DNA from: Candidatus Nomurabacteria bacterium
GTDB taxonomy: Bacteria > Patescibacteriota > Minisyncoccia > Phycocordibacterales > UBA9973
Assembly (NCBI GenBank): GCA_943350045.1
Contig: CALQZW010000001.1
Span: forward strand, 9,760 to 73,759
Direction of reading: 5' to 3'
Length of the DNA: 64,000 nucleotides
A program made the position numbers and the translations under genes. The notes below the pieces were generated by a model. It saw only the letters and a list, made by a program, of their open reading frames with translations, did not search any database and was not told the origin of the DNA. This document shows, piece after piece, positions 9,884 through 62,951 of the stretch (its first letter is position 1; every line of letters begins with the position of its first letter).

Positions 9884-9936
9884 ATAGCAAAAGACCAACT
9901 GTAGAAGTGGGTCTTTAAATTTCATTTAGTCTCTTG

Positions 9937-10392
9937 CTATTCAGCAATTATTATTCTTTTGCTCTGTATCTGACAACCAGCCGAATGAATCGAAAGACTG
10001 AACGCTCGAGAACCACTCACGTCTTTCAGTTCCTGACCAATCGTGGCAGATTCATAGAATTCCTTTGATACTGGAATTTCAAAACTTGCGTTAGCTGTTG
10101 TGAACTCCAGTCCTCTTCGAATTGAAACTTTTAATCCGAGAATGTAAGCAATCTTATTACCGCCTACCTCTGCCTCCTGAAGTTGCACTTTATTCGCAAT
10201 TTCAAGATTCTGAGCATTTAAGTATTCATTTTTTTCGTTAAGTTTTTGCAAGAGGGTTTGCTTGCTAGTAATTTCCGAATCAAGCATTTCTCGTTGACTA
10301 TTGAGTCTTGCCACATCTTCCGAGGTTGTATTGCAAGAAAAAAGCGAGAGAATTCCTAAACACGTAATACTATAGAAAAAACTTTTTTTCAT
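9937..10392 (-). CDS. lipoprotein with a coiled-coil region
   Basis: The N-terminus MKKSFFYSITCLGILSLFSC carries a lipobox LFSC. A Q/E/L-rich heptad segment follows. Confidence 0.55.
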   Translation of the reverse strand: MKKSFFYSITCLGILSLFSCNTTSEDVARLNSQREMLDSEITSKQTLLQKLNEKNEYLNAQNLEIANKVQLQEAEVGGNKIAYILGLKVSIRRGLEFTTANASFEIPVSKEFYESATIGQELKDVSGSRAFSLSIHSAGCQIQSKRIIIAE

Positions 10393-10424
10393 AAGAACAT
10401 TTTTTTTGAAAGTTAGAAAATTTA

Positions 10425-10450
10425 TTTCGAACTTGGGATGATATTCGAAA
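10425..10450. repeat. intergenic hairpin repeat, copy 2
   Basis: The sequence is TTTCGAACTTGGGATGATATTCGAAA. Confidence 0.55.
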
Positions 10451-10513
10451 CACTACAGTGAATAGAAAATAAAAAGATCAGCGTGTATTGCTGATCTTTA
10501 GTTTTAAACCTGC

Positions 10514-11059
10514 TTAATTTGCATACTTATAGAAATAATCAAGAAAATTACCTTCGTTGCAAGTGATGATATTTTTTATATCCTCTACCTTATTCTCCAA
10601 GATTTCTTCACAACTGAGACCCCTGCAAATCTTCCTTACGAGCTCTTCGATTACAAATGAATCAATTTCGCTCGAGATAAATTTCTCGTCGGCTCCAGGG
10701 TTTTCTTGTGTTATCTTTGGAACCACATTTTCTTTTAGAAGGGAATGTTGTATAAAAAATTCTTTTGATATAACAAAATTTGGATTTTTATTCTGCACTC
10801 TGAATCTTACTTCACGAGCGGCGATTCCAAATAGTCTTTCTTGGGACACAGTGGATAGCCTGCTAATATTTCTCGTTACAACTACGTAATAATCCTCTTC
10901 TGTTGAGTAACATGCGTAGGTTGTATCATCTCCCCATTTTTTGTCGTTAAATGCAATAGTATGCACGTGGGTTGTGTCGTTGCTAAATACTATTTGATCA
11001 AGAACGGTTATTCTTATAACCAATTCTTCTGCGATTGCTTGTATTTCTGTTGTGTCCAT
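10514..11059 (-). CDS. hypothetical protein
   Basis: The 181-aa ORF has a terminator hairpin (AAAGATCAGCgtgtattGCTGATCTTT, 10472-10498) just downstream on the minus strand. Confidence 0.5.
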   Translation of the reverse strand: MDTTEIQAIAEELVIRITVLDQIVFSNDTTHVHTIAFNDKKWGDDTTYACYSTEEDYYVVVTRNISRLSTVSQERLFGIAAREVRFRVQNKNPNFVISKEFFIQHSLLKENVVPKITQENPGADEKFISSEIDSFVIEELVRKICRGLSCEEILENKVEDIKNIITCNEGNFLDYFYKYAN

Positions 11060-11067
11060 TTATTTAG

Positions 11068-11116
11068 TTTTTGTGGTTACTAGAGAAACCTCCAGTTGCT
11101 CTAGTAACCACAAAAA
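11068..11116. promoter_or_regulatory. 18-bp perfect inverted repeat (very stable hairpin) immediately upstream of the 10514..11059 start codon
   Basis: The sequence is GTTTTTGTGGTTACTAGAG-aaacctccagttg-CTCTAGTAACCACAAAAA. Neither flank has a U-tract, so this is not a classical terminator. Confidence 0.5.
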
Positions 11117-11155
11117 GGTGTCAAAAAACGCATTTGGATAGATACTACAACAATA

Positions 11156-11710
11156 TTAAGTTTTGTCAAACTTTTGCTCTTGAGATTTTAAGCTATGTAA
11201 AAAATTCCGCTCGTCTTTTATGCTTTTAATAATTATCACCTTCTTTGTTTCTTTGTAGGGTAATATTTTTGCATACTGGTCGGCGGTTGGAGAGTTTAGG
11301 GCAAATTGTATGTCTTTCCATGTGAAAGGATATTTTTGTTTGTTATTACCTCCCATGTCCGGACGGACTTTATTGTAATACTTGAAATATCGTTTTGTCT
11401 GTCTCCAGAGTGTAAGCCATAGGGGTAGGTCATAAAAAACAATAGTATCGGCTTCAGCTATACGCATATCAAAAGTTTTAGACCGATGCATGCTTCCGTC
11501 AATTATCCAACGAGGTTCTTGGAGGATTTTTGAAACAGCTTCTATACCTTCCGCTTGAGAGGCGAATACCTGATTATCTTTCCAAAAAATCTTATCTAAG
11601 TGGTAAACAGGAATATTAAGAATCTTACCTATTTTATTGGAGAGGGTTGTCTTTCCTGATGCTGTGCCCCCGCAAATAGTTATTTTATTCATGTGGAGTA
11701 AGTATACCAA
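11156..11710 (-). CDS. P-loop NTPase, adenylate-kinase-like (topology-modulation-protein family)
   Basis: The Walker A motif ITICGGTASGKTTLS lies near the N-terminus. The real start is probably MNKITIC at 11692. Confidence 0.6.
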   Translation of the reverse strand: MVYLLHMNKITICGGTASGKTTLSNKIGKILNIPVYHLDKIFWKDNQVFASQAEGIEAVSKILQEPRWIIDGSMHRSKTFDMRIAEADTIVFYDLPLWLTLWRQTKRYFKYYNKVRPDMGGNNKQKYPFTWKDIQFALNSPTADQYAKILPYKETKKVIIIKSIKDERNFLHSLKSQEQKFDKT

Positions 11711-52763: not shown

Positions 52764-53327
52764 ATGAAAAAGATACAGGCACAAGATGTAATCGACATTA
52801 CTGCTGTTATTGAGAATGGATGGGTGTTTGACTCCTCTCGATATCACAATTTCCCTAAAGATAGTAACTCGCAATTACTATATAGCATTCGGCATATTTT
52901 ACTGCATCAAGTAAAAACATTACCTCACCTTGACGCATTCATTACTTGCGTGGACGAAGGAAAAGACAAGTGTTCCGAATTTCCAAGCGACGCAATGGTC
53001 TTAGCTAAAAGTGTAATGAACAGCTTGAGACTCCTTACGATACTTGGTTATGGGGAGAACACGTTGCAGGCCGATAAATCCGTACGCTTCGCCCCTCTTG
53101 ATTACAAGAAAGAAATGATACGTTTACTCGGATTGCTAGCTAATACTTGTGAAAGATATGATCATAGTAGTAGAAACCCCGATTTACTTTCACTGCACAA
53201 AATTGCACTTGAAATATGGTATCAACAGGTTTCACTGTTCTATTGGGAAAAGCTACCTTGGGATTTTGCCAAGATTTGCACTCTTGTCAGAAGTATTTTT
53301 GCTCAACATACAAATGTTTTTATGTAA
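52764..53327 (+). CDS. hypothetical protein
   Basis: The 187-aa ORF is followed by a terminator (AGAGCGTACAGAAcacaTTCTGTACGCTCTtttttt, 53330-53368). Confidence 0.45.
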   Translation: MKKIQAQDVIDITAVIENGWVFDSSRYHNFPKDSNSQLLYSIRHILLHQVKTLPHLDAFITCVDEGKDKCSEFPSDAMVLAKSVMNSLRLLTILGYGENTLQADKSVRFAPLDYKKEMIRLLGLLANTCERYDHSSRNPDLLSLHKIALEIWYQQVSLFYWEKLPWDFAKICTLVRSIFAQHTNVFM

Positions 53328-54468: not shown

Positions 54469-55167
54469 ATGGTCAGCAATCATGCGAAAAAAGAATTAGC
54501 TGTTTCTCTCAGGAAAGAAGGGAAGACATATTCTGAAATTCTTAGAGCTGTTCCTGTTGCAAAATCTACACTCTCGCTATGGCTTCGTGCTGTAGGTCTT
54601 TCGAATAGACAAAAACAGAAAATAACTCAAGCACGGATACTTTCTGGTTTGCGTGGAGCACAAAAAAGACACAAACAAAAAATATCCACACAAGATCAGT
54701 TACACACCCAGGCACTATCAGAAATAAAAAGCATCTCTAGTGCAGAACTATTCTACATAGGAGTCACTTTATATTGGGCAGAAGGGAATAAAGAGAGAAT
54801 CGGCCAACCTGGCTCTCAGTTAATGTTTTCGAATATGGATCCAAAGATGATAGCGGTATTTTTGCAGTGGCTTATTGCTTCAGTACAGATTCGGTATGAA
54901 GATGTTTTCTATGAAATATATATTCACAAGAATCATATTCATCGAAAGGATGAAATACTCGCATATTGGAAGAAATGGACAGCTTTTTGCAAAAGCGATG
55001 ATTTTCGGGTGTATACAAAGAATACAAATGTAGCCACAAATAGAAAGAACACAAGGGAAGAGACCTATTTTGGTATTTTGCGTATAAGGGTACGAAAAAG
55101 CTCTCACTATGTCCGAAAACTTGCGGGATGGGCCGATGGGATATATGATGCAGTAGTACCAGTGTAA
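54469..55167 (+). CDS. hypothetical protein with an N-terminal helix-turn-helix
   Basis: The N-terminal ~40 aa (LRKEGKTYSEILRAVPVAKSTLSLWLR) resemble an HTH. The remainder is unrecognised. Confidence 0.4.
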   Translation: MVSNHAKKELAVSLRKEGKTYSEILRAVPVAKSTLSLWLRAVGLSNRQKQKITQARILSGLRGAQKRHKQKISTQDQLHTQALSEIKSISSAELFYIGVTLYWAEGNKERIGQPGSQLMFSNMDPKMIAVFLQWLIASVQIRYEDVFYEIYIHKNHIHRKDEILAYWKKWTAFCKSDDFRVYTKNTNVATNRKNTREETYFGILRIRVRKSSHYVRKLAGWADGIYDAVVPV

Positions 55168-55169
55168 TT

Positions 55170-55240
55170 TAGGGAATCGTCTAATGGTAGGACAGAGACC
55201 TTTGAAGTCTTTAATTGGGGTTCGAATCCCTGTTCCCTAG
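55170..55240 (+). tRNA. tRNA-Gln (anticodon UUG)
   Basis: TAGGGAATCGTCTAATGGTAGGACAGAGACCTTTGAAGTCTTTAATTGGGGTTCGAATCCCTGTTCCCTAG has a U1-A72 pair, as in E. coli tRNA-Gln, and anticodon loop cuUUGaa. Confidence 0.75.
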
Positions 55241-55249
55241 CAAAACAGT

Positions 55250-56143
55250 ATGAAAATAGACCTACAGATACATACAAATCATTCTGATGGGCATGAATCA
55301 CCTAAAGAAATTATAACTCTCGCGAAAGAGGGTAAGCTCGATGTAATCGCAGTGACCGACCATGACATAGTTTCAGGTTTTCTTGAAACAAAGGAAGCTG
55401 GATCTAGTGAAAACATTATAGTTATTCCAGGGGTTGAGATTACTACAGGGTACCGTGGTCAACCGATTCATATATTAGGATATCAGATTGATATAGCGAA
55501 TCCTGAACTCGTTAATTTTTTACAATCAGTAAATGATTATAGGCAGAAGCATTTCCTCTCCATGATTCCGCAGGTAAATACAAACCTCGCAGAAAATGGA
55601 ATGCAAACTGTTAAAATAGAGGATTATAAAAACAAGTCACCAAAATACTATAGTATTCCTGGTATCGCATTGTTTCTCTATGAACAGAATATTGTTCAAG
55701 CACGAAATGATGGATTTGCTTATATTGGCGGAGTCGTAGATGTTGCCCCTACGATTGAACCTAAGGAAGCTTTTGAAATAATTCACAAGGCGGGAGGAAA
55801 AGCATTTTTAAGTCACCCTTTCGCACCTAAAATCTCTCTCAAAAATATTTCGGAAGATACGTTGGAACAAGAGAAAATCATTCTTGCATTTAAAGAATCG
55901 GGAATGGATGGTCTTGAGTGTTTTGGTACCGGACATACGCCAGAAGATGTGGAGTTTGCATTGATGCTTGCTGATAAACATAACCTGCTGATCTCTGCCG
56001 GCAGTGATTGGCATGGCTGTTTAGAGAAGACAGGAGAGACTATTAAGCAATGGTTGCCGTTTTACTTAAAAAAATTAGGGGACCTGGAAGTTCCTCAAGT
56101 AAGAATCAAGCAGATCCTTGGAGATCTTAATGTTGAAATGTAA
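55250..56143 (+). CDS. PHP-domain phosphoesterase
   Basis: The His-rich N-terminus MKIDLQIHTNHSDGHESP...VIAVTDHD is typical of PHP-family metal-dependent phosphoesterases. Confidence 0.75.
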   Translation: MKIDLQIHTNHSDGHESPKEIITLAKEGKLDVIAVTDHDIVSGFLETKEAGSSENIIVIPGVEITTGYRGQPIHILGYQIDIANPELVNFLQSVNDYRQKHFLSMIPQVNTNLAENGMQTVKIEDYKNKSPKYYSIPGIALFLYEQNIVQARNDGFAYIGGVVDVAPTIEPKEAFEIIHKAGGKAFLSHPFAPKISLKNISEDTLEQEKIILAFKESGMDGLECFGTGHTPEDVEFALMLADKHNLLISAGSDWHGCLEKTGETIKQWLPFYLKKLGDLEVPQVRIKQILGDLNVEM

Positions 56144-56195
56144 ATCATTACAACTATCTATGGTCTCTGTTAGTAGAACCAAATGGTTGCTCTCT

Positions 56196-56600
56196 ATGAG
56201 TCATATAATTAAAACAAATCCTTCCTTAGTCCGCCCATCCCAAGATTACCTTAAGGGTGATACTTTGGATTTTATTAAACAGAACTTCGAGGCGGGGAAT
56301 TTAGAGAAACTTCCACCTGCTCCGATTGTCAGGAAAGATGAGAATGGAGGATATATCGCCATCGATGGACATAATTTACTCGCGTTCTATTCTCTCAGAA
56401 ACATGGAGTGTTATGTATGTGTAGCAGAGAGTAAAGACGACAAGATTGAGGGAGATTCTGAAATGATTCAAAAAAGAAATACAGATTTGTTCGAAAAGTA
56501 CGACTCTGCTCTCAACGAGGCTAATAGTTTAAAAGAGAAAGGGATTGTGACGATTAAGGATTTGTGTAATTCCGCAGGTCTGAGTTTAGAATTCCGTTAG
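56196..56600 (+). CDS. ParB-like nuclease (ParB/Srx fold) domain protein
   Basis: IKTNPSLVRPSQ ... GGYIAIDGHNLLAFYSL matches the ParB N-terminal domain pattern (I.P...Q.R ... liDGhHRl.A). Possible starts are 56118, 56160 and 56196. Confidence 0.45.
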   Translation: MSHIIKTNPSLVRPSQDYLKGDTLDFIKQNFEAGNLEKLPPAPIVRKDENGGYIAIDGHNLLAFYSLRNMECYVCVAESKDDKIEGDSEMIQKRNTDLFEKYDSALNEANSLKEKGIVTIKDLCNSAGLSLEFR

Positions 56601-56623
56601 AGTCTATTTGATATGGTGTATCC

Positions 56624-57025
56624 ATGACTCAGCAGGATTTATTACATATCGCCACATCTCGATATCAAGAGGCAAAAATATTGCTCGAAAATGGAAAACC
56701 CGAGGGATCAATGTATCTTTGTGGATACGCCTTGGAGTTGATGCTCAAAAGACGAATACTGAAATTACTTGAGTGGGACGAATATCCAGATAGTGATAAA
56801 AGATACACTTCGTTTAAGATTCATGATCTGAATGTGTTACTTCGACTGGCTGGGCTAGAAAAGAAGATTAAAATAGATCCCGTTGTATACTTACATTGGC
56901 AGGTTGCATCACAAAACTGGAGTGTTAATATGCGTTATGAGAATACTGGAAACAGCTTGAGTGTAAATGCTCGTGACATGATTAGTGGGTCAAAGGTCGT
57001 TCTTAGTTATCTCAAAGACATATGA
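56624..57025 (+). CDS. HEPN-domain protein
   Basis: The helical motif MYLCGYALELMLKRRIL fits the HEPN consensus (y.a.qa.E.alKa.l). Its stop overlaps the next gene start (ATGA). Confidence 0.45.
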   Translation: MTQQDLLHIATSRYQEAKILLENGKPEGSMYLCGYALELMLKRRILKLLEWDEYPDSDKRYTSFKIHDLNVLLRLAGLEKKIKIDPVVYLHWQVASQNWSVNMRYENTGNSLSVNARDMISGSKVVLSYLKDI

Positions 57026-57495
57026 ATGAAATCTTACAAAAAATGAATACGGTTTGTTCAGAACTAGACTCTACAGAAATGTTTGGAGAGATAGTGTTTT
57101 TGGGCATAATCGAACGAGATAATTTAGACGATGCGTGGGATATTGTCGTGGGAGGAAGTGGGGTAGTGAGAGAGAATCGCATGTCTGATATGGCGAAAAT
57201 GATTGATGTATTGAGGAAGGTCCTTGAGAATGATCTTTCATTTGTTGCCCAAATCGTTCTTCTTGAATCTAATCAAGAGTTTGTTCTCGATATGGGTCTC
57301 TATCTAGAGAGAAATAATATCAACACTGGCGAGGTGAGAGATGCTCGTTTGCTCAGTACTCGCAACAAGATTAAACGAATGTATGTAATCAAGAATAACT
57401 TTAACAAAAATGTTCTTGATCAGTTTGAAAAAGATACCCGTGCTCAAATCGAGCTTCGTAAAAATACAGTTGTTGATCAAACTCCGGCGTTTTAA
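57022..57495 (+). CDS. hypothetical protein, possibly a minimal nucleotidyltransferase-like partner of the HEPN protein
   Basis: It is translationally coupled to the HEPN gene. There is a weak GGSG...SDMAKMID resemblance to the MNT hG[GS]...DhD motif. Confidence 0.3.
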   Translation: MNEILQKMNTVCSELDSTEMFGEIVFLGIIERDNLDDAWDIVVGGSGVVRENRMSDMAKMIDVLRKVLENDLSFVAQIVLLESNQEFVLDMGLYLERNNINTGEVRDARLLSTRNKIKRMYVIKNNFNKNVLDQFEKDTRAQIELRKNTVVDQTPAF

Positions 57496-57541
57496 TTGTT
57501 TCTAAGTAAAATTTTACTTTATATAAATAGTCTGTTTCTTC

Positions 57542-58015
57542 ATGAGTACAAAAATGACCGACGCAGAATATCACGCATCACTCCCCAAAAAGCAGGTCGG
57601 TACTGCCGTCTTGTTTTTTAATACACAAAACGAGCTACTGATTCTGAAACCAAACTACAAAGAGGGTTGGCTTGTTCCTGGAGGCTCAAATGATGAAGGA
57701 GAATCACCGCTTGCCTGTGCGATTCGCGAAACTCACGAAGAGATTGGACTCCGTTTTCAGTCTTTTGATCTTGTAGGGGTGCTACACTCTTCTGGGTCAG
57801 GACATAAAGCAGACTCACTTAAGTTTATATTCAACGGCGGAATATTGTCTGAGAATCAGATTCAGGATATTCGTTTGCAGACTTCAGAATTTGATGAAAT
57901 GATTTTTCTAGATATAAATGAAGCGATCCCGCTTCTCTCAAACAGTCTCCAGAAATCTATTCCTCAGTGTATTAAGGCGATACAGGAAAAGTCTTTTGCT
58001 TACATTGACGGATAG
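57542..58015 (+). CDS. NUDIX hydrolase
   Basis: The Nudix box GGSNDEGESPLACAIRETHEEIGL is present. Confidence 0.85.
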   Translation: MSTKMTDAEYHASLPKKQVGTAVLFFNTQNELLILKPNYKEGWLVPGGSNDEGESPLACAIRETHEEIGLRFQSFDLVGVLHSSGSGHKADSLKFIFNGGILSENQIQDIRLQTSEFDEMIFLDINEAIPLLSNSLQKSIPQCIKAIQEKSFAYIDG

Positions 58016-58209
58016 TTTTACATATTCTTATATAATATTTAGGATTCTGTTATCCCTCCCTCTGTACACTGAGTGTAAGTTGTTCATTGAAACACGCATA
58101 GCGTAGCCAAGAAAACAGAGAGCGCAATTTGTCTGTCCGCACTCTGTTTTTTGGTGTCTAAGATACGGAAATACAAAACCCCTGCAGATAGTTGCAGGGG
58201 TATACTCGA

Positions 58210-59199
58210 TTATTTTTTAGCGTTTCGTTTCAGTTCAATTTCGACAATAACTTGTTCTGAAATTTTTTGATAACCGGGGAGATCTATTTCAGGATAGATA
58301 CTACCTTGAATCATTTCATTTATTCTTTCCCAGAATATGTAGCTTGATCCTTGGGACTTATCAATCGCTTCAAAAAGTGCAGGATAGCTTACCCATAGAT
58401 ATGGATTGTGAATGTCTACTGTGCGATGGCACAATCGTACACCCATAGCAGTAAGTGACATCTGCAATCTATCGGGTGTAAATGCACCGTTGCGTGGATT
58501 AATATCTGCCTCTGTAAACTTTCTATAGTCCTCAAGGGTAAAACTTGCTGGAAATTCGTGCCCAATTATACGATGAGAAAGTTGAAACGTTTTGTCATGC
58601 TGAGTCGCAACACAGTTGGATCGGTAGCAATTTGAAAACGGCTCTTCAGATAGATTGTACAAGTTTTTAATATGAATGCTTGGGTCTGAGATGTTTTTGC
58701 TAACTCGTGCATAGAGATCTCTGTCAGTGGACATCATGAGGGATAAGTCTCGCACTATCCTTTCATTGGCGAATGTATTATTTGAGCCGACTAAGCCCAG
58801 GTAATCAAGTTGACTGCCTTTCCAATACTTTAGAATTTCTTCAAGGTTTTGTATGCTCGGTGAGATATCAATAGATTTAGATGGAAAACCTACTAAAATT
58901 TCTCGGTGTCCTCTTTCTTCAATTTGAAGTAATTTTGAGATAAGCTGAGAACTATCTCCTAAACTAATTCCAATATGACTATATGGAATTAGTTGGAACG
59001 TGTCGATAAGTTGCATTATGTCCATGTTCATGGACATAAATAGTACTTCCATTTGTGTGCCTTCATAGAGTTTTTGTAGTTGAAGAAAAGCCGGAAGTAT
59101 TTGATCACCGTATGATCCAGTATTTTTATTCCTAATTGGGCAATGAGGACAGCCCATTTCGCAGCCACTTTCTTGTAGCATGATTTCAATGTGTATCAT
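58210..59199 (-). CDS. radical SAM domain protein, function unknown
   Basis: The CX3CX2C motif lies at the N-terminus (SGCEMGCPHCPI). The rest is not assignable to a known family by eye. Confidence 0.5.
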   Translation of the reverse strand: MIHIEIMLQESGCEMGCPHCPIRNKNTGSYGDQILPAFLQLQKLYEGTQMEVLFMSMNMDIMQLIDTFQLIPYSHIGISLGDSSQLISKLLQIEERGHREILVGFPSKSIDISPSIQNLEEILKYWKGSQLDYLGLVGSNNTFANERIVRDLSLMMSTDRDLYARVSKNISDPSIHIKNLYNLSEEPFSNCYRSNCVATQHDKTFQLSHRIIGHEFPASFTLEDYRKFTEADINPRNGAFTPDRLQMSLTAMGVRLCHRTVDIHNPYLWVSYPALFEAIDKSQGSSYIFWERINEMIQGSIYPEIDLPGYQKISEQVIVEIELKRNAKK

Positions 59200-59292
59200 T
59201 TTTACTGATTTTTAAGGGTGAAAATTTGTGCAAATAGTATAATTAAAATGTAATTATGTCAATAACTTGAGAAATTCTGTAAATATGGTATA

Positions 59293-61383: not shown

Positions 61384-61926
61384 ATGAATGAAGATGATGT
61401 TGTATTTGAAGCCACAGAAGAAGGCGAGGGCGAAGCATTGTCAAAGGACAAGATAAAGAAGCTTCGTGAAGACTTAAAAACAGCACAGGCTGAAAAGGCC
61501 GACTACTTGGCTTCTTGGCAAAAGGAGCGCGCTGACTTTATTAACTACAAAAAAGGCGAAGACGAGCGCCGAAAGCAGATCGGAGAATATGCGCGCGAAT
61601 CTTTTCTTGAAGACCTCCTTCCAGTACTCGATGGCTTTGATATGGCCTTTGGAAATACTGAAGCATGGGAGAAAGTAGATAAAGGATGGCGTAGTGGTAT
61701 TGAATATATTCACCAGCAGTTTGTGAAAGTCCTCGAGGAGAATGGTATTTCTCAGATAGCTCCAAATCTTGGAGATACAGTTGATGTTTCTATGCATGAA
61801 GTTATGGATACGATGCCAACTGATGACGAAGTAAAAGAAGATACAGTTTCTGCCGTCATGCAAAAAGGGTATAAGGTAAAAGATCGAGTAGTGCGACCAG
61901 CACGCGTGAAGGCGTGGAAGAAATAA
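61384..61926 (+). CDS. grpE: nucleotide exchange factor GrpE
   Basis: An acidic N-terminus and a coiled coil are followed by the conserved C-terminal MHEVMDTMPTDDEV...VMQKGYKVKDRVVRPARVKAWKK. Confidence 0.85.
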   Translation: MNEDDVVFEATEEGEGEALSKDKIKKLREDLKTAQAEKADYLASWQKERADFINYKKGEDERRKQIGEYARESFLEDLLPVLDGFDMAFGNTEAWEKVDKGWRSGIEYIHQQFVKVLEENGISQIAPNLGDTVDVSMHEVMDTMPTDDEVKEDTVSAVMQKGYKVKDRVVRPARVKAWKK

Positions 61927-62951
61927 TGTCTTTTTCTATTCGCGAATTACACAATGACGAGGACTACAATCCAAGTATTCTTTCAATGGAAACTCCGTTT
62001 ACTCAGGCTCGTTTTTACGGAGCCTGGCAAAAGAGTTTAGGACGAAAAGTGAGACGATTTGTGATAACAGAAGATACTTCTGTTATTTCATATTTTCAAG
62101 TAGTAAAATATCCACTCGCCTTTGGTCTGTACTATCTTTACGCTCCCTATGGTCCAGTCGTCTCAAAATATTCTGAGGCATTTTTTCAATACCTTCGCAC
62201 TGAGTTTCAGAAAATAGCAAAAGAGGAGAATGCTGTGTTTGTGCGTCTCGACTTTACACCTGTTATTTTAAATGAGTCGCTCAGTAGTTTTTTTACAAAG
62301 GCTCCGTCGTATACATATCACTCAGCATATTTTCAGCCACGTAATGAGTGGCACCTACCGCTTGAGAAATCAGAGAAAGATTTACTCATGGGCATGCACG
62401 AAAAGACACGATACTCAGTTCGGCTAGCAGAGAAAAAAGGAATCTCTGTTGAGATTGTAACTGAGAACTTTTCTGAACACTTCGAAAGTTTCCATACACT
62501 TTTAGTTGGCACTGCTCATCGAAACGGATTTCGTTTGCATGCGAAAGAGTATTACAAGACAATCTTTGATACATTGTCTTCTGATGCTTCGTACGTAGTG
62601 GTCGCACGATATGGTAAAAAAATTCTCGCCATGGACCTTATCGTCGTATTTGGTTCAATCGCCACCTACGTGTTCGGAGGATCAAGTAACGAGGAGCGAA
62701 ATCGCATGCCCACATACTCTGCGCATTGGAGAGGTATTTGTCATGCAAAAATGCTGGGTTGTAAGTACTATAACTTCGGAGGAATTTCGACTGAGGGTGA
62801 TGTGTATAAAGGATGGGACGGCCTTACAACGTTTAAAATGAAGTTTGGAGGAAATGAAGTTGCGCATTCTGAATTTTTTGACGTTGTCGAAAAACCTCTC
62901 TTGTATACGTTGTACAATCTCCGAAAACGCTTCAAAAAAATCTTTAGCTAG
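61914..62951 (+). CDS. FemAB-family aminoacyltransferase (peptidoglycan interpeptide branch formation)
   Basis: The ~340-aa size and GNAT-fold pattern fit the family, and the C-terminal block FKMKFGG is FemAB-like. The start may be MSFSIREL at 61926. Confidence 0.55.
   Translation: MEEIMSFSIRELHNDEDYNPSILSMETPFTQARFYGAWQKSLGRKVRRFVITEDTSVISYFQVVKYPLAFGLYYLYAPYGPVVSKYSEAFFQYLRTEFQKIAKEENAVFVRLDFTPVILNESLSSFFTKAPSYTYHSAYFQPRNEWHLPLEKSEKDLLMGMHEKTRYSVRLAEKKGISVEIVTENFSEHFESFHTLLVGTAHRNGFRLHAKEYYKTIFDTLSSDASYVVVARYGKKILAMDLIVVFGSIATYVFGGSSNEERNRMPTYSAHWRGICHAKMLGCKYYNFGGISTEGDVYKGWDGLTTFKMKFGGNEVAHSEFFDVVEKPLLYTLYNLRKRFKKIFS

What the first reader, a model, noticed from the sequence alone, without database searches (positions are those of the whole stretch)
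55170..59199. Accessory islet downstream of tRNA-Gln: PHP phosphoesterase, ParB-like nuclease, HEPN module, NUDIX hydrolase, radical SAM protein
Immediately 3' of tRNA-Gln(UUG) is a run of non-core genes: a PHP phosphoesterase, a small ParB/Srx-fold nuclease-domain protein, a HEPN protein whose stop overlaps a 157-aa partner (toxin-antitoxin-like coupling), a NUDIX hydrolase, and on the opposite strand a radical SAM protein (CX3CX2C at its N-terminus) of unknown family. A tRNA is a common integration site, and HEPN, ParB-nuclease and NUDIX genes are recurrent in defence or abortive-infection islands. I did not find an obvious direct repeat of the tRNA 3' end.
Basis: inference. Interest (0 to 1): 0.55.

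Follow-up and report, generated by a model that had tools for sequence, protein, structure and literature searches.

The report
Variable gene slot with HEPN pair
The stretch after tRNA-Gln in this Parcubacteria (CPR) genome is not an inserted mobile island but an ordinary, fast-changing chromosomal slot that holds a housekeeping-type PHP enzyme, a phage-related HEPN two-gene (toxin-antitoxin-like) pair, a NUDIX hydrolase and two lineage-specific proteins, one of them probably a very divergent radical SAM enzyme.

Summary
tRNA-Gln(UUG), a PHP gene, a HEPN gene whose stop overlaps a 157-aa ORF (ATGA), a NUDIX gene and an opposite-strand 329-aa ORF with CX3CX2C are all at the stated coordinates. 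All are real genes (dN/dS 0.09-0.17 against a relative with ~87% nucleotide identity).

Two domain calls are weaker than stated. The "ParB-like nuclease" is not confirmed by any model. The radical SAM call is only partly supported: the Cys motif is invariant in a small family and two relatives hit Pfam Radical_SAM below threshold.

The integration-island reading is not supported:
- There is no integrase and no copy of the tRNA 3' end.
- Synonymous divergence matches the flanks.
- In the relative the block stays with its right flank and has no tRNA.
- PHP is core-like, with 42-65% identical copies in other Parcubacteria that lack the other genes.

The accessory reading is supported. Three close lineages carry three different gene sets here, produced by deletions and insertions.

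The HEPN gene belongs to a phage and plasmid two-gene module (phrog_5737 plus an overlapping partner; PADLOC candidate PDC-M28A). Its partner here is an orphan. I rate this a modest finding: a new member of known kinds.

The parts
55170..55241 (+). tRNA-Gln(UUG). It is the last member of a conserved Dus-DnaX-(HTH232)-tRNA-Gln block and forms the left border of the variable stretch.
   Evidence: ARAGORN and Rfam. The DnaX-tRNA-Gln linkage is present in 7 distant Parcubacteria loci.
55250..56143 (+). PHP-family phosphoesterase of the TrpH/YciV type (297 aa). It starts 8 nt after the tRNA. It is core-like and not part of the accessory set.
   Evidence: Pfam PHP 1.7e-9. NCBIfam nearest models are 3',5'-nucleoside bisphosphate phosphatase (2e-34) and RNase RNM (8e-33), both below cut-off. 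It is 91% identical in L085 with dN/dS 0.12. Copies 42-65% identical occur in other Parcubacteria contigs without the other islet genes.
56196..56600 (+). p134, a genus-restricted small protein (alternative starts at 56130 and 56118). The ParB/Srx resemblance rests on a motif only and is unconfirmed.
   Evidence: No family or PDB match. BLASTP against a from-memory sulfiredoxin sequence gives E 0.15 in register. dN/dS 0.09. It is largely deleted in L091, where window 56179-56478 is missing.
56624..57025 (+). HEPN-domain protein (133 aa) of the phrog_5737 / PDC-M28A subfamily. It is the presumed toxin or effector of a two-gene module.
   Evidence: Pfam HEPN above the gathering score; PADLOC PDC-M28A 6e-7; phrog_5737 4e-15. 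It is 33-38% identical to phage and plasmid homologues. Invariant residues are R13, E16, YLCGY, E38, K42, H67-D68 and R104-Y105, but there is no family-wide Rx4-6H. In L085 it is truncated by a 50-nt frameshifting deletion.
57022..57495 (+). p157, a translationally coupled partner of HEPN (ATGA overlap). It is a genus-restricted orphan and the presumed antitoxin or immunity protein.
   Evidence: Overlap read. Only 4 clusters, all at least 90% identical, exist among 5.8 billion proteins. dN/dS 0.12. It has no homology to the phage partner family phrog_5760. The AF2 model is poor (pLDDT 45); its top Foldseek hit is a minimal nucleotidyltransferase, which is not significant.
57542..58015 (+). NUDIX hydrolase (157 aa) with a complete Nudix box. 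It occupies a slot where NUDIX genes are exchanged between relatives.
   Evidence: Pfam NUDIX 3.4e-15. It is only 72% identical to the L085 copy, with dS 2.1 against ~0.4 for its neighbours. L091 has a non-orthologous NUDIX in this slot.
58178..58201 (-). Terminator-like hairpin just downstream of the p329 stop. It lies in the 194-nt spacer between the convergent NUDIX and p329 genes.
   Evidence: One search reports a 9-bp stem with 6 GC pairs and a T-rich tail. The spacer segment 58008-58091 matches the 3' tail of a truncated cytidylyltransferase ORF in L085.
58210..59199 (-). p329, a monocistronic gene for a divergent radical-SAM-like protein. It founds a small, apparently CPR-restricted family.
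   Evidence: Only 17 representatives exist among 1.84 billion proteins. Invariant residues are C13, C17, C20, P21, N141, R210, G253, H258 and W269. Family member P0007 hits Pfam Radical_SAM at 1.4e-5, 25.8 bits against a cut-off of 29.5, in register. The family profile weakly aligns the motif to BtrN. The AF2 model (pLDDT 66) has an alternating beta/alpha N-terminal half. Foldseek hits to TIM barrels and to the radical SAM enzymes BlsE and HemN are weak. dN/dS 0.17. Homologues sit in unrelated gene contexts.
59234..59262 (-). Promoter-like site upstream of p329, divergent from a SpoU promoter-like site.
   Evidence: TTGACA-17-TACTAT. This is a consensus match only.

Best explanation
The region is a chromosomal flexible slot of a Parcubacteria/Paceibacterota (CPR) genome. 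It lies between two conserved blocks, Dus-DnaX-tRNA-Gln on the left and SpoU-UppP-Csp-GrpE on the right. It is not an element integrated at the tRNA, and its genes are independent units rather than one system.

1. PHP is a vertically inherited TrpH/YciV-type phosphoesterase. By family, it is likely a pAp/nanoRNA phosphatase or a 5'-3' exoribonuclease (inferred).
2. HEPN and p157 form a translationally coupled two-gene module. It is related to a phage and plasmid module (phrog_5737 plus an overlapping partner). It most likely works as a toxin-antitoxin or abortive-infection-type pair: the HEPN protein binds or cleaves RNA, and the co-translated partner neutralises it by binding. The architecture and homology are shown. 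The activities are inferred.
3. NUDIX is a stand-alone nucleotide-diphosphate hydrolase in a slot where such genes are swapped between relatives.
4. p134 is a dispensable orphan of unknown fold.
5. p329 is a separately transcribed, very divergent radical SAM enzyme with one [4Fe-4S]-binding CX3CX2C motif. It belongs to a tiny, undescribed family. The motif and family are shown. The chemistry is inferred and the substrate is unknown.

The differences between close relatives arise by small deletions and insertions.
For: Taxonomy and conserved left block.

Three different gene sets occur in close relatives:
- window: PHP-p134-HEPN-p157-NUDIX-p329
- L091: PHP-(p134 deleted)-HEPN-p157-Zn-ribbon-other NUDIX
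- L085: PHP-DnaJ-p134-HEPN(truncated)-p157-NTase-ASCH-Zn-ribbon-Band7-NUDIX-(PRTase fragments)-CTP transferase(truncated)-p327

Other evidence:
- Purifying selection acts on every gene, and dS is like the flanks.
- There is no integrase, no att repeat, and no tRNA remnant at the L085 junction.
- PHP occurs alone in other Parcubacteria. In L094 the PHP...GrpE-p188 spacing is kept, but ribosomal protein genes fill the gap.
- The HEPN subfamily always carries an overlapping downstream partner of 133-134 aa: 33 of 33 viral contigs, plus a Klebsiella phage and an Acinetobacter plasmid, the last beside a BrnT/BrnA toxin-antitoxin pair.
- In L085 the HEPN gene is frameshifted while p157 is intact, as expected if the toxin is the dispensable partner.
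- p329 has its own promoter-like and terminator-like signals. Its family-wide invariant CX3CX2C and sub-threshold Radical_SAM hits appear.
Against: - No activity has been shown for any gene.
- The HEPN subfamily lacks a conserved Rx4-6H RNase motif. R60x6H67 exists only in the CPR copies, so the protein may not be an RNase.
- p157 is not detectably related to the phage partner family or to MNT antitoxins.
- The radical SAM assignment of p329 rests on a motif, sub-threshold hits in relatives and a medium-confidence model. No GGE-type SAM motif was recognised, and the Foldseek matches are weak (TM at most 0.32).
- The DnaX-tRNA-Gln site of the closest different relative (the L085 organism) could not be found, so a clean empty-site comparison is missing.
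- The genes from PHP through NUDIX are tightly packed on one strand and could be co-transcribed.
Confidence: 0.6

Rival explanations
1. This is the first reader's view: a genomic or defence island that integrated site-specifically at the 3' end of tRNA-Gln and carries a defence cargo of HEPN, ParB-nuclease and NUDIX genes.
For: - The block begins 8 nt after the tRNA.
- GC is 0.38 against ~0.44-0.46 for the flanks.
- Gene content varies between relatives.
- HEPN homologues are carried by phages and plasmids and match a PADLOC candidate.
- Homology with L085 ends exactly at the tRNA 3' end.
- One distant relative has a DNA methylase downstream of its tRNA-Gln.
Against: - No integrase or recombinase is present, and no att repeat exists in 64 kb.
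- dS equals that of the flanks.
- In L085 the block is collinear with the right flank, lacks the tRNA and has no tRNA remnant.
- PHP, the gene abutting the tRNA, is core-like.
- The same low GC is seen in other non-core genes of the window.
- Only one PADLOC component matches, and weakly.
- ParB is not confirmed.
Confidence: 0.1
2. The genes form a single co-transcribed RNA-turnover operon. NUDIX (RppH-like) removes 5' pyrophosphate, HEPN cuts RNA, and PHP (RNase AM-like) degrades or processes 5' ends. p134 and p157 would act as accessory factors, and the operon would be made together with tRNA-Gln.
For: - All five genes lie on one strand with gaps of -4 to 52 nt and no convincing internal promoter or terminator.
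- All recognisable domains act on RNA or nucleotides.
- NUDIX genes recur near tRNA-Gln in L003, L005 and L091.
Against: - In L085 unrelated genes (DnaJ, NTase, ASCH, Band_7) are inserted between these genes.
- PHP occurs without the others in seven other loci.
- The NUDIX genes are not orthologous between relatives.
- p134 is deleted in L091 and HEPN is frameshifted in L085, without loss of the rest.
Confidence: 0.12
3. The HEPN-p157 pair is a classical HEPN-MNT (HepT/MntA-like) system in reversed gene order, with p157 a degenerate minimal nucleotidyltransferase.
For: - The top Foldseek hit of the p157 model is the Sulfolobus minimal NTase 2rff (probability 0.92), and chains of the HEPN-MNT complexes 7ae2 and 7ae9 rank 4, 5 and 8.
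- The predicted alpha-beta-beta-alpha-beta order is compatible.
- In L085 a canonical-looking NTase (GG...DIDI) lies just downstream of p157.
Against: - The model has pLDDT 45 and the Foldseek E-values are 0.07-0.1, which is not significant.
- No NTase family hits p157 at E up to 1.
- Read by eye, the sequence shows no GS...DxD catalytic motif.
- The phage relatives of this HEPN use a different partner, phrog_5760.
Confidence: 0.1

Closest known systems
phrog_5737 + phrog_5760 two-gene module of phages, prophages and plasmids (the HEPN part also matches PADLOC candidate PDC-M28A). Its function is unknown.
   Same: The HEPN protein is homologous over its full length (33-38% identity; phrog_5737 at 4e-15). 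As in that module, it is followed on the same strand by an overlapping small ORF of 130-160 aa.
   Different: The partner p157 shows no detectable similarity to phrog_5760. The overlap is 4 nt instead of a fixed 22 nt. The host is a CPR chromosome rather than a proteobacterial mobile element.
HEPN-MNT toxin-antitoxin systems (HepT/MntA, type VII)
   Same: A small HEPN protein is paired with a translationally coupled small partner. In one relative the HEPN gene is lost or decayed while the partner is kept.
   Different: No nucleotidyltransferase domain was detected in the partner. The gene order is reversed, with HEPN first. No conserved Rx4-6H motif is present.
TrpH/YciV PHP phosphoesterases (RNase AM/RNM; 3',5'-nucleoside bisphosphate phosphatase)
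   Same: The match runs nearly the full length of both NCBIfam models (residues 2-263) and includes the N-terminal HxH PHP motif.
   Different: Scores are far below the equivalog cut-offs (119 against 400 bits, and 114 against 375). The specific activity therefore cannot be assigned.
Radical SAM superfamily (for example BtrN, BlsE, HemN)
   Same: An N-terminal beta-strand is followed by an invariant CX3CX2C. The predicted N-terminal half alternates beta and alpha elements. There are sub-threshold Pfam hits in two family members, and the motif aligns with BtrN.
   Different: No Pfam or NCBIfam model reaches threshold. No recognisable GGE SAM-binding motif is present. The family has its own conserved C-terminal block (GVRxxH...NPYLW). 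It has only 17 representatives at 50% clustering.
ParB/Srx (ParBc) domain proteins
   Same: Read by eye, the order of motifs is similar (RPSQ..., PPxPIV, GGYxAIDGHN), and the local register matches sulfiredoxin.
   Different: No significant sequence match exists to any model or structure. The DGHHR/GxxR arginine is absent. The fold was not tested.
tRNA-associated genomic islands
   Same: The block abuts a tRNA 3' end, has lower GC and carries variable cargo.
   Different: It has no integrase and no att repeats. It is the same age as its flanks. It is not tRNA-linked in the closest different relative.

Membership tests
tRNA-integrated genomic island | Integrase or recombinase gene next to the tRNA | tested here: not met
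   The ORF list and the Pfam, NCBIfam and PHROG scans show none between 54.4 and 60 kb.
tRNA-integrated genomic island | Direct repeat of the tRNA 3' end (attR) at the far border | tested here: not met
   No second copy of the last 16 or 24 nt occurs, allowing up to 3 mismatches, anywhere in the 64 kb. No meaningful repeats were found.
tRNA-integrated genomic island | Presence/absence polymorphism of the whole block at an otherwise conserved tRNA site | tested here: inconclusive
   In L085 the block is present, collinear with the right flank and not next to a tRNA. The DnaX-tRNA-Gln site of that organism was not found. Distant relatives share nothing downstream of the tRNA.
HEPN superfamily | Match to a HEPN profile above the curated threshold | tested here: met
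   Pfam PF05168 scores 24.8 bits against a cut-off of 22. The phage homologue matches 98 of 117 profile positions.
HEPN superfamily | Conserved Rx4-6H RNase motif | tested here: not met
   R60x6H67 is present only in the CPR copies. Across the subfamily H67-D68 and R104-Y105 are invariant, but no Rx4-6H is.
HEPN-MNT toxin-antitoxin (HepT/MntA) | Partner is a minimal nucleotidyltransferase with GS...DxD | tested here: not met
   p157 gets no NTase hit at E up to 1. The Foldseek hint to 2rff is not significant and comes from a pLDDT-45 model.
PADLOC candidate system PDC-M28 | All components of the candidate system are present | tested here: not met
   Only PDC-M28A matches (6e-7). No other PADLOC model hits p134 or p157. 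I did not see the system definition itself.
phrog_5737/phrog_5760 phage module | HEPN of phrog_5737 followed by an overlapping phrog_5760 partner | tested here: not met
   The HEPN half is met and the architecture is met. p157 does not match phrog_5760 or a profile built from 20 partners.
ParB/Srx (ParBc, PF02195) | Significant match to a ParB/Srx profile or structure | tested here: not met
   Pfam, NCBIfam, PHROGs and PADLOC gave none. PDB sequences gave none at E up to 10.
ParB/Srx (ParBc, PF02195) | ParB/Srx fold | not tested
Radical SAM superfamily | CX3CX2C cluster-binding motif after the first beta-strand, conserved in the family | tested here: met
   C13, C17 and C20 are invariant in 17 sequences that are 17-29% identical to p329, apart from the 86% orthologue. 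The motif follows predicted strand 2-9.
Radical SAM superfamily | Match to PF04055 or a related model at threshold | tested here: not met
   p329 itself gets no hit. Two of 17 relatives hit below threshold; the best is P0007 at 25.8 bits against 29.5, E 1.4e-5. NCBIfam gave none.
Radical SAM superfamily | Partial (beta/alpha)6 TIM-barrel fold | tested here: inconclusive
Radical SAM superfamily | Fe-S cluster and reductive SAM cleavage | not testable with these tools
   This needs biochemistry.
NUDIX hydrolases | NUDIX profile match and an intact Nudix box GX5EX7REUXEEXGU | tested here: met
   Pfam scores 56.7 bits against a cut-off of 21.1. The box G-SNDEG-E-SPLACAI-RETHEEIGL was read from the translation.
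TrpH/YciV PHP phosphoesterases (RNase AM/RNM; pAp phosphatase) | NCBIfam equivalog score cut-off | tested here: not met
   Scores are 118.9 bits against 400 and 113.9 against 375. The Pfam PHP domain itself is met.

The most novel reading that the evidence does not exclude
Two undescribed families sit here. First, p329 would found a CPR-restricted radical SAM family with its own conserved C-terminal GVRxxH...NPYLW block and unknown chemistry. Second, HEPN-p157 would be a new HEPN toxin-antitoxin or abortive-infection variant. In it, a phage-type non-canonical HEPN (no Rx4-6H) is controlled by a lineage-specific partner unrelated to MNT or to phrog_5760. That would imply that partners of this HEPN module are replaced wholesale between lineages.
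Probability: 0.3. Interest if true: 0.4.

Novelty: new member of a known kind. Interest (0 to 1): 0.3.

Why it matters
The practical value is mainly corrective. Adjacency to a tRNA plus defence-sounding domains is not enough to call an integrated defence island in CPR genomes, where synteny decays quickly and non-core genes are generally AT-richer.

Two by-products may interest specialists:
- A phage and plasmid HEPN two-gene module of unknown function (phrog_5737/phrog_5760, PADLOC candidate PDC-M28A) has a chromosomal relative in Parcubacteria with a different partner.
- A tiny, unannotated family with an invariant CX3CX2C motif is probably a new branch of radical SAM enzymes.

Tried and rejected
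- Empty-site test. A metagenome scan with the DnaX C-terminal half, aimed at the L085 organism's DnaX-tRNA-Gln site, found no relative. The GTDB scan gave only relatives about 50% identical.
- A viral scan with the single HEPN protein found nothing. The alignment-based scan worked.
- p157: 5.8 billion proteins yielded only near-identical copies. The AF2 model was poor. hhalign and HMM comparisons with the L085 NTase and with the phage partner family were negative.
- p134: the tblastn hit in a faecal phage (E 0.1) fell in what looks like a structural protein and was dismissed as chance. Comparison with the C-terminus of the L085 DnaJ protein, which looked ParB-like by eye, was negative.
- No ncRNA other than the tRNA is present in the region. 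No tRNA remnant lies at the L085 junction.
- Literature searches for PDC-M28 and for HEPN in CPR gave nothing relevant.
- I rejected the idea that low GC marks foreign DNA, because the same GC is seen in other lineage-specific genes of the window.

Full report
**What is there.** The window comes from a Parcubacteria/Paceibacterota (CPR) genome. Its DnaX is about 50% identical to the best species representatives, all of them Parcubacteria MAGs. The layout at the stated coordinates is as follows.
- tRNA-Gln(UUG), 55170-55241
- PHP, 55250-56143
- a small ORF, 56196-56600 (134 aa from the start conserved in the relative; 156-160 aa from upstream starts)
- HEPN, 56624-57025
- a 157-aa ORF, 57022-57495, which overlaps the HEPN stop as ATGA
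- NUDIX, 57542-58015
- a 329-aa ORF on the minus strand, 58210-59199

To the left lie Dus, a 187-aa ORF, DnaX and a 232-aa HTH protein that ends 2 nt before the tRNA. To the right lie SpoU, UppP, Csp, GrpE and a FemAB-like gene.

**Domain checks.**
- PHP, HEPN and NUDIX pass Pfam thresholds.
- PHP aligns nearly end to end with the NCBIfam models for 3',5'-nucleoside bisphosphate phosphatase and RNase RNM, but far below their cut-offs. It is a TrpH/YciV-type PHP enzyme of unassigned specificity.
- HEPN also matches PADLOC candidate PDC-M28A (6e-7, full length) and phrog_5737 (4e-15).
- The 134-aa protein matches nothing: Pfam, NCBIfam, PHROGs, PADLOC, PDB sequences, phages and plasmids. Its motif order looks ParB/Srx-like by eye. 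The ParB call remains a lead, not a finding.
- The 157-aa partner and the 329-aa protein also have no direct family hits.

**Are the ORFs genes?** A related organism was found through the 329-aa protein: JGI contig L085, about 87% identical in DNA. Codon-level comparison gives dN/dS of 0.09-0.17 for all six ORFs. Their dS is 0.24-0.49, comparable to the flanking SpoU (0.52) and UppP (0.88). NUDIX is the exception, with dS 2.1 and only 72% amino-acid identity. The ORFs are therefore real genes, and apart from NUDIX they are as old in this lineage as their right flank.

**Is it an island integrated at the tRNA?** The evidence is against it.
- There is no integrase.
- No copy of the tRNA 3' end exists anywhere in the 64 kb, even allowing three mismatches.
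- In L085 the block from PHP to p329 is collinear with SpoU-UppP-Csp-GrpE. To the left of PHP, however, L085 has a CYTH gene, a radical SAM gene and a kinase gene, with no tRNA and no tRNA remnant.
- The Dus-DnaX-tRNA-Gln block is conserved in seven distant Parcubacteria, but what follows the tRNA differs in each. At that evolutionary distance this says little.
- PHP, the gene that touches the tRNA, is core-like. Copies 42-65% identical occur in other Parcubacteria contigs without any of the other genes. In L094 the PHP...GrpE-p188 arrangement is kept while ribosomal protein genes fill the gap.
- The low GC (0.38) is shared by other lineage-specific genes of the window, such as 52764-53327, 54469-55167 and 9.9-11.7 kb. 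It does not mark foreign DNA.

I could not find the DnaX-tRNA-Gln site of the L085 organism, so a strict empty-site test is missing.

**Is it accessory or variable?** Yes. Three lineages that are 86-95% identical in DNA carry three gene sets.
- Window: PHP-p134-HEPN-p157-NUDIX-p329.
- L091 (93-95% identical): a 300-nt in-frame deletion removes most of p134. HEPN-p157 is intact. A Zn-ribbon gene and a non-orthologous NUDIX follow.
- L085 has several additions. A DnaJ-domain gene lies between PHP and p134. An NTase, an ASCH protein, a Zn-ribbon protein, a small membrane ORF and Band_7 lie between p157 and NUDIX. Phosphoribosyltransferase fragments and a truncated cytidylyltransferase lie before p327. 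Its HEPN gene is cut short by a 50-nt frameshifting deletion.

The slot is thus a site of repeated small insertions, deletions and gene decay.

**The HEPN pair.** HEPN homologues 33-38% identical occur in Klebsiella phage Kp4864-1, in Acinetobacter plasmid pAJ4131 (beside a BrnT/BrnA pair) and in 33 IMG/VR contigs. In every case a 133-134-aa ORF overlaps the HEPN stop by exactly 22 nt. These partners form one family, phrog_5760, of unknown function.

The CPR copy has the same architecture, but its partner p157 shows no detectable relation to that family. p157 exists only as near-identical copies in 5.8 billion proteins. Its AF2 model is poor (pLDDT 45). The best Foldseek hits are a minimal nucleotidyltransferase and chains of HEPN-MNT complexes, at non-significant E-values. 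That is a hint, no more.

The HEPN subfamily conserves R13, E16, YLCGY, E38, K42, H67-D68 and R104-Y105, but it has no Rx4-6H motif. RNase activity is therefore not assured.

On architecture, on carriage by mobile elements, and on decay of HEPN with retention of p157 in L085, a toxin-antitoxin or abortive-infection-type pair is the best reading. I put it at about 45-50%.

**The 329-aa protein.**
- The word-indexed search found only its orthologue.
- The exhaustive HMMER search found 17 representatives among 1.84 billion proteins, each about 330 aa long. All but the 86% orthologue P0002 are 22-36% identical to p329.
- C13, C17, C20, P21, N141, R210, G253, H258 and W269 are invariant.
- Two members hit Pfam Radical_SAM below threshold. 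The best is P0007, at E 1.4e-5 over residues 8-121, matching profile positions 3-121.
- The family profile weakly aligns the motif region to BtrN.
- The AF2 model (pLDDT 66, pTM 0.69) has an alternating beta/alpha N-terminal half, with the Cys loop after strand 1.
- Foldseek gives weak hits to TIM barrels and to the radical SAM enzymes BlsE and HemN.
- Homologues sit in unrelated gene contexts.
- The gene has its own promoter-like and terminator-like signals.

I read it as a stand-alone, very divergent radical SAM enzyme of an undescribed family, at about 55-60%. It is not part of a system with the plus-strand genes.

**Verdict.** The integration and defence-island interpretation is mostly not supported. 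The weaker claim holds: a variable accessory stretch containing a toxin-antitoxin-like HEPN module. Nothing here is categorically new. The orphan partner of a phage-type HEPN and the small CX3CX2C family are modest novelties.

Noticed in passing
window 54469-55167; L005 11884-12606: A 232-aa protein with an N-terminal HTH and, by eye, a LAGLIDADG-like 'LYWAEGNK' motif is wedged between DnaX and tRNA-Gln. It ends 2 nt before the tRNA. A 39% identical homologue in a distant Parcubacterium ends 3 nt before its own tRNA-Gln, whereas other relatives have DnaX followed directly by the tRNA. It may be a homing-type selfish gene.
   Followed up: partly
L127-L159, L125 3001-3800, L126 2495-3300: In 33 of 33 viral contigs, plus a Klebsiella phage and an Acinetobacter plasmid, the HEPN relative (phrog_5737) is followed by a 133-134-aa partner (phrog_5760) that overlaps its stop by exactly 22 nt. 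This is a strictly conserved two-gene module of unknown function.
   Followed up: partly
L085 13313-14311 (minus strand): A protein matching Pfam Radical_SAM has its Cys-rich 'CNFNC...C' stretch at the C-terminus and a GxxEPLL-like motif near the N-terminus. It may be a circular permutation or a mis-assembled or split gene.
   Followed up: no
window 61914-62951 versus L085 609-1352: The FemAB-like gene between GrpE and the 188-aa gene is replaced in the relative by an unrelated 247-aa membrane-like ORF. This is a second small variable spot.
   Followed up: no
window 58008-58091; L085 5190-5286: The spacer between NUDIX and p329 is identical at the protein level to the last 28 codons of a truncated cytidylyltransferase ORF in L085. 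This suggests gene loss or decay at this point in both lineages.
   Followed up: partly
L003 12521-12931 and 13956-14327; L005 15753-16145; L091 2003-2413: Non-orthologous NUDIX genes recur within a few kb downstream of tRNA-Gln, or in the same slot, in several Parcubacteria.
   Followed up: partly
L085 10353-11456 and 8565-9047: The relative carries a DnaJ-domain protein directly upstream of p134. It also carries a 160-aa protein with a canonical-looking nucleotidyltransferase motif (GG...DIDI) directly downstream of p157. Neither has a counterpart anywhere in the window.
   Followed up: partly
window 9900-11700 and 52764-53327: Other runs of low-GC (0.35-0.385) genes without recognised domains occur elsewhere in the window. 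Low GC therefore tracks non-core genes in general in this genome.
   Followed up: no
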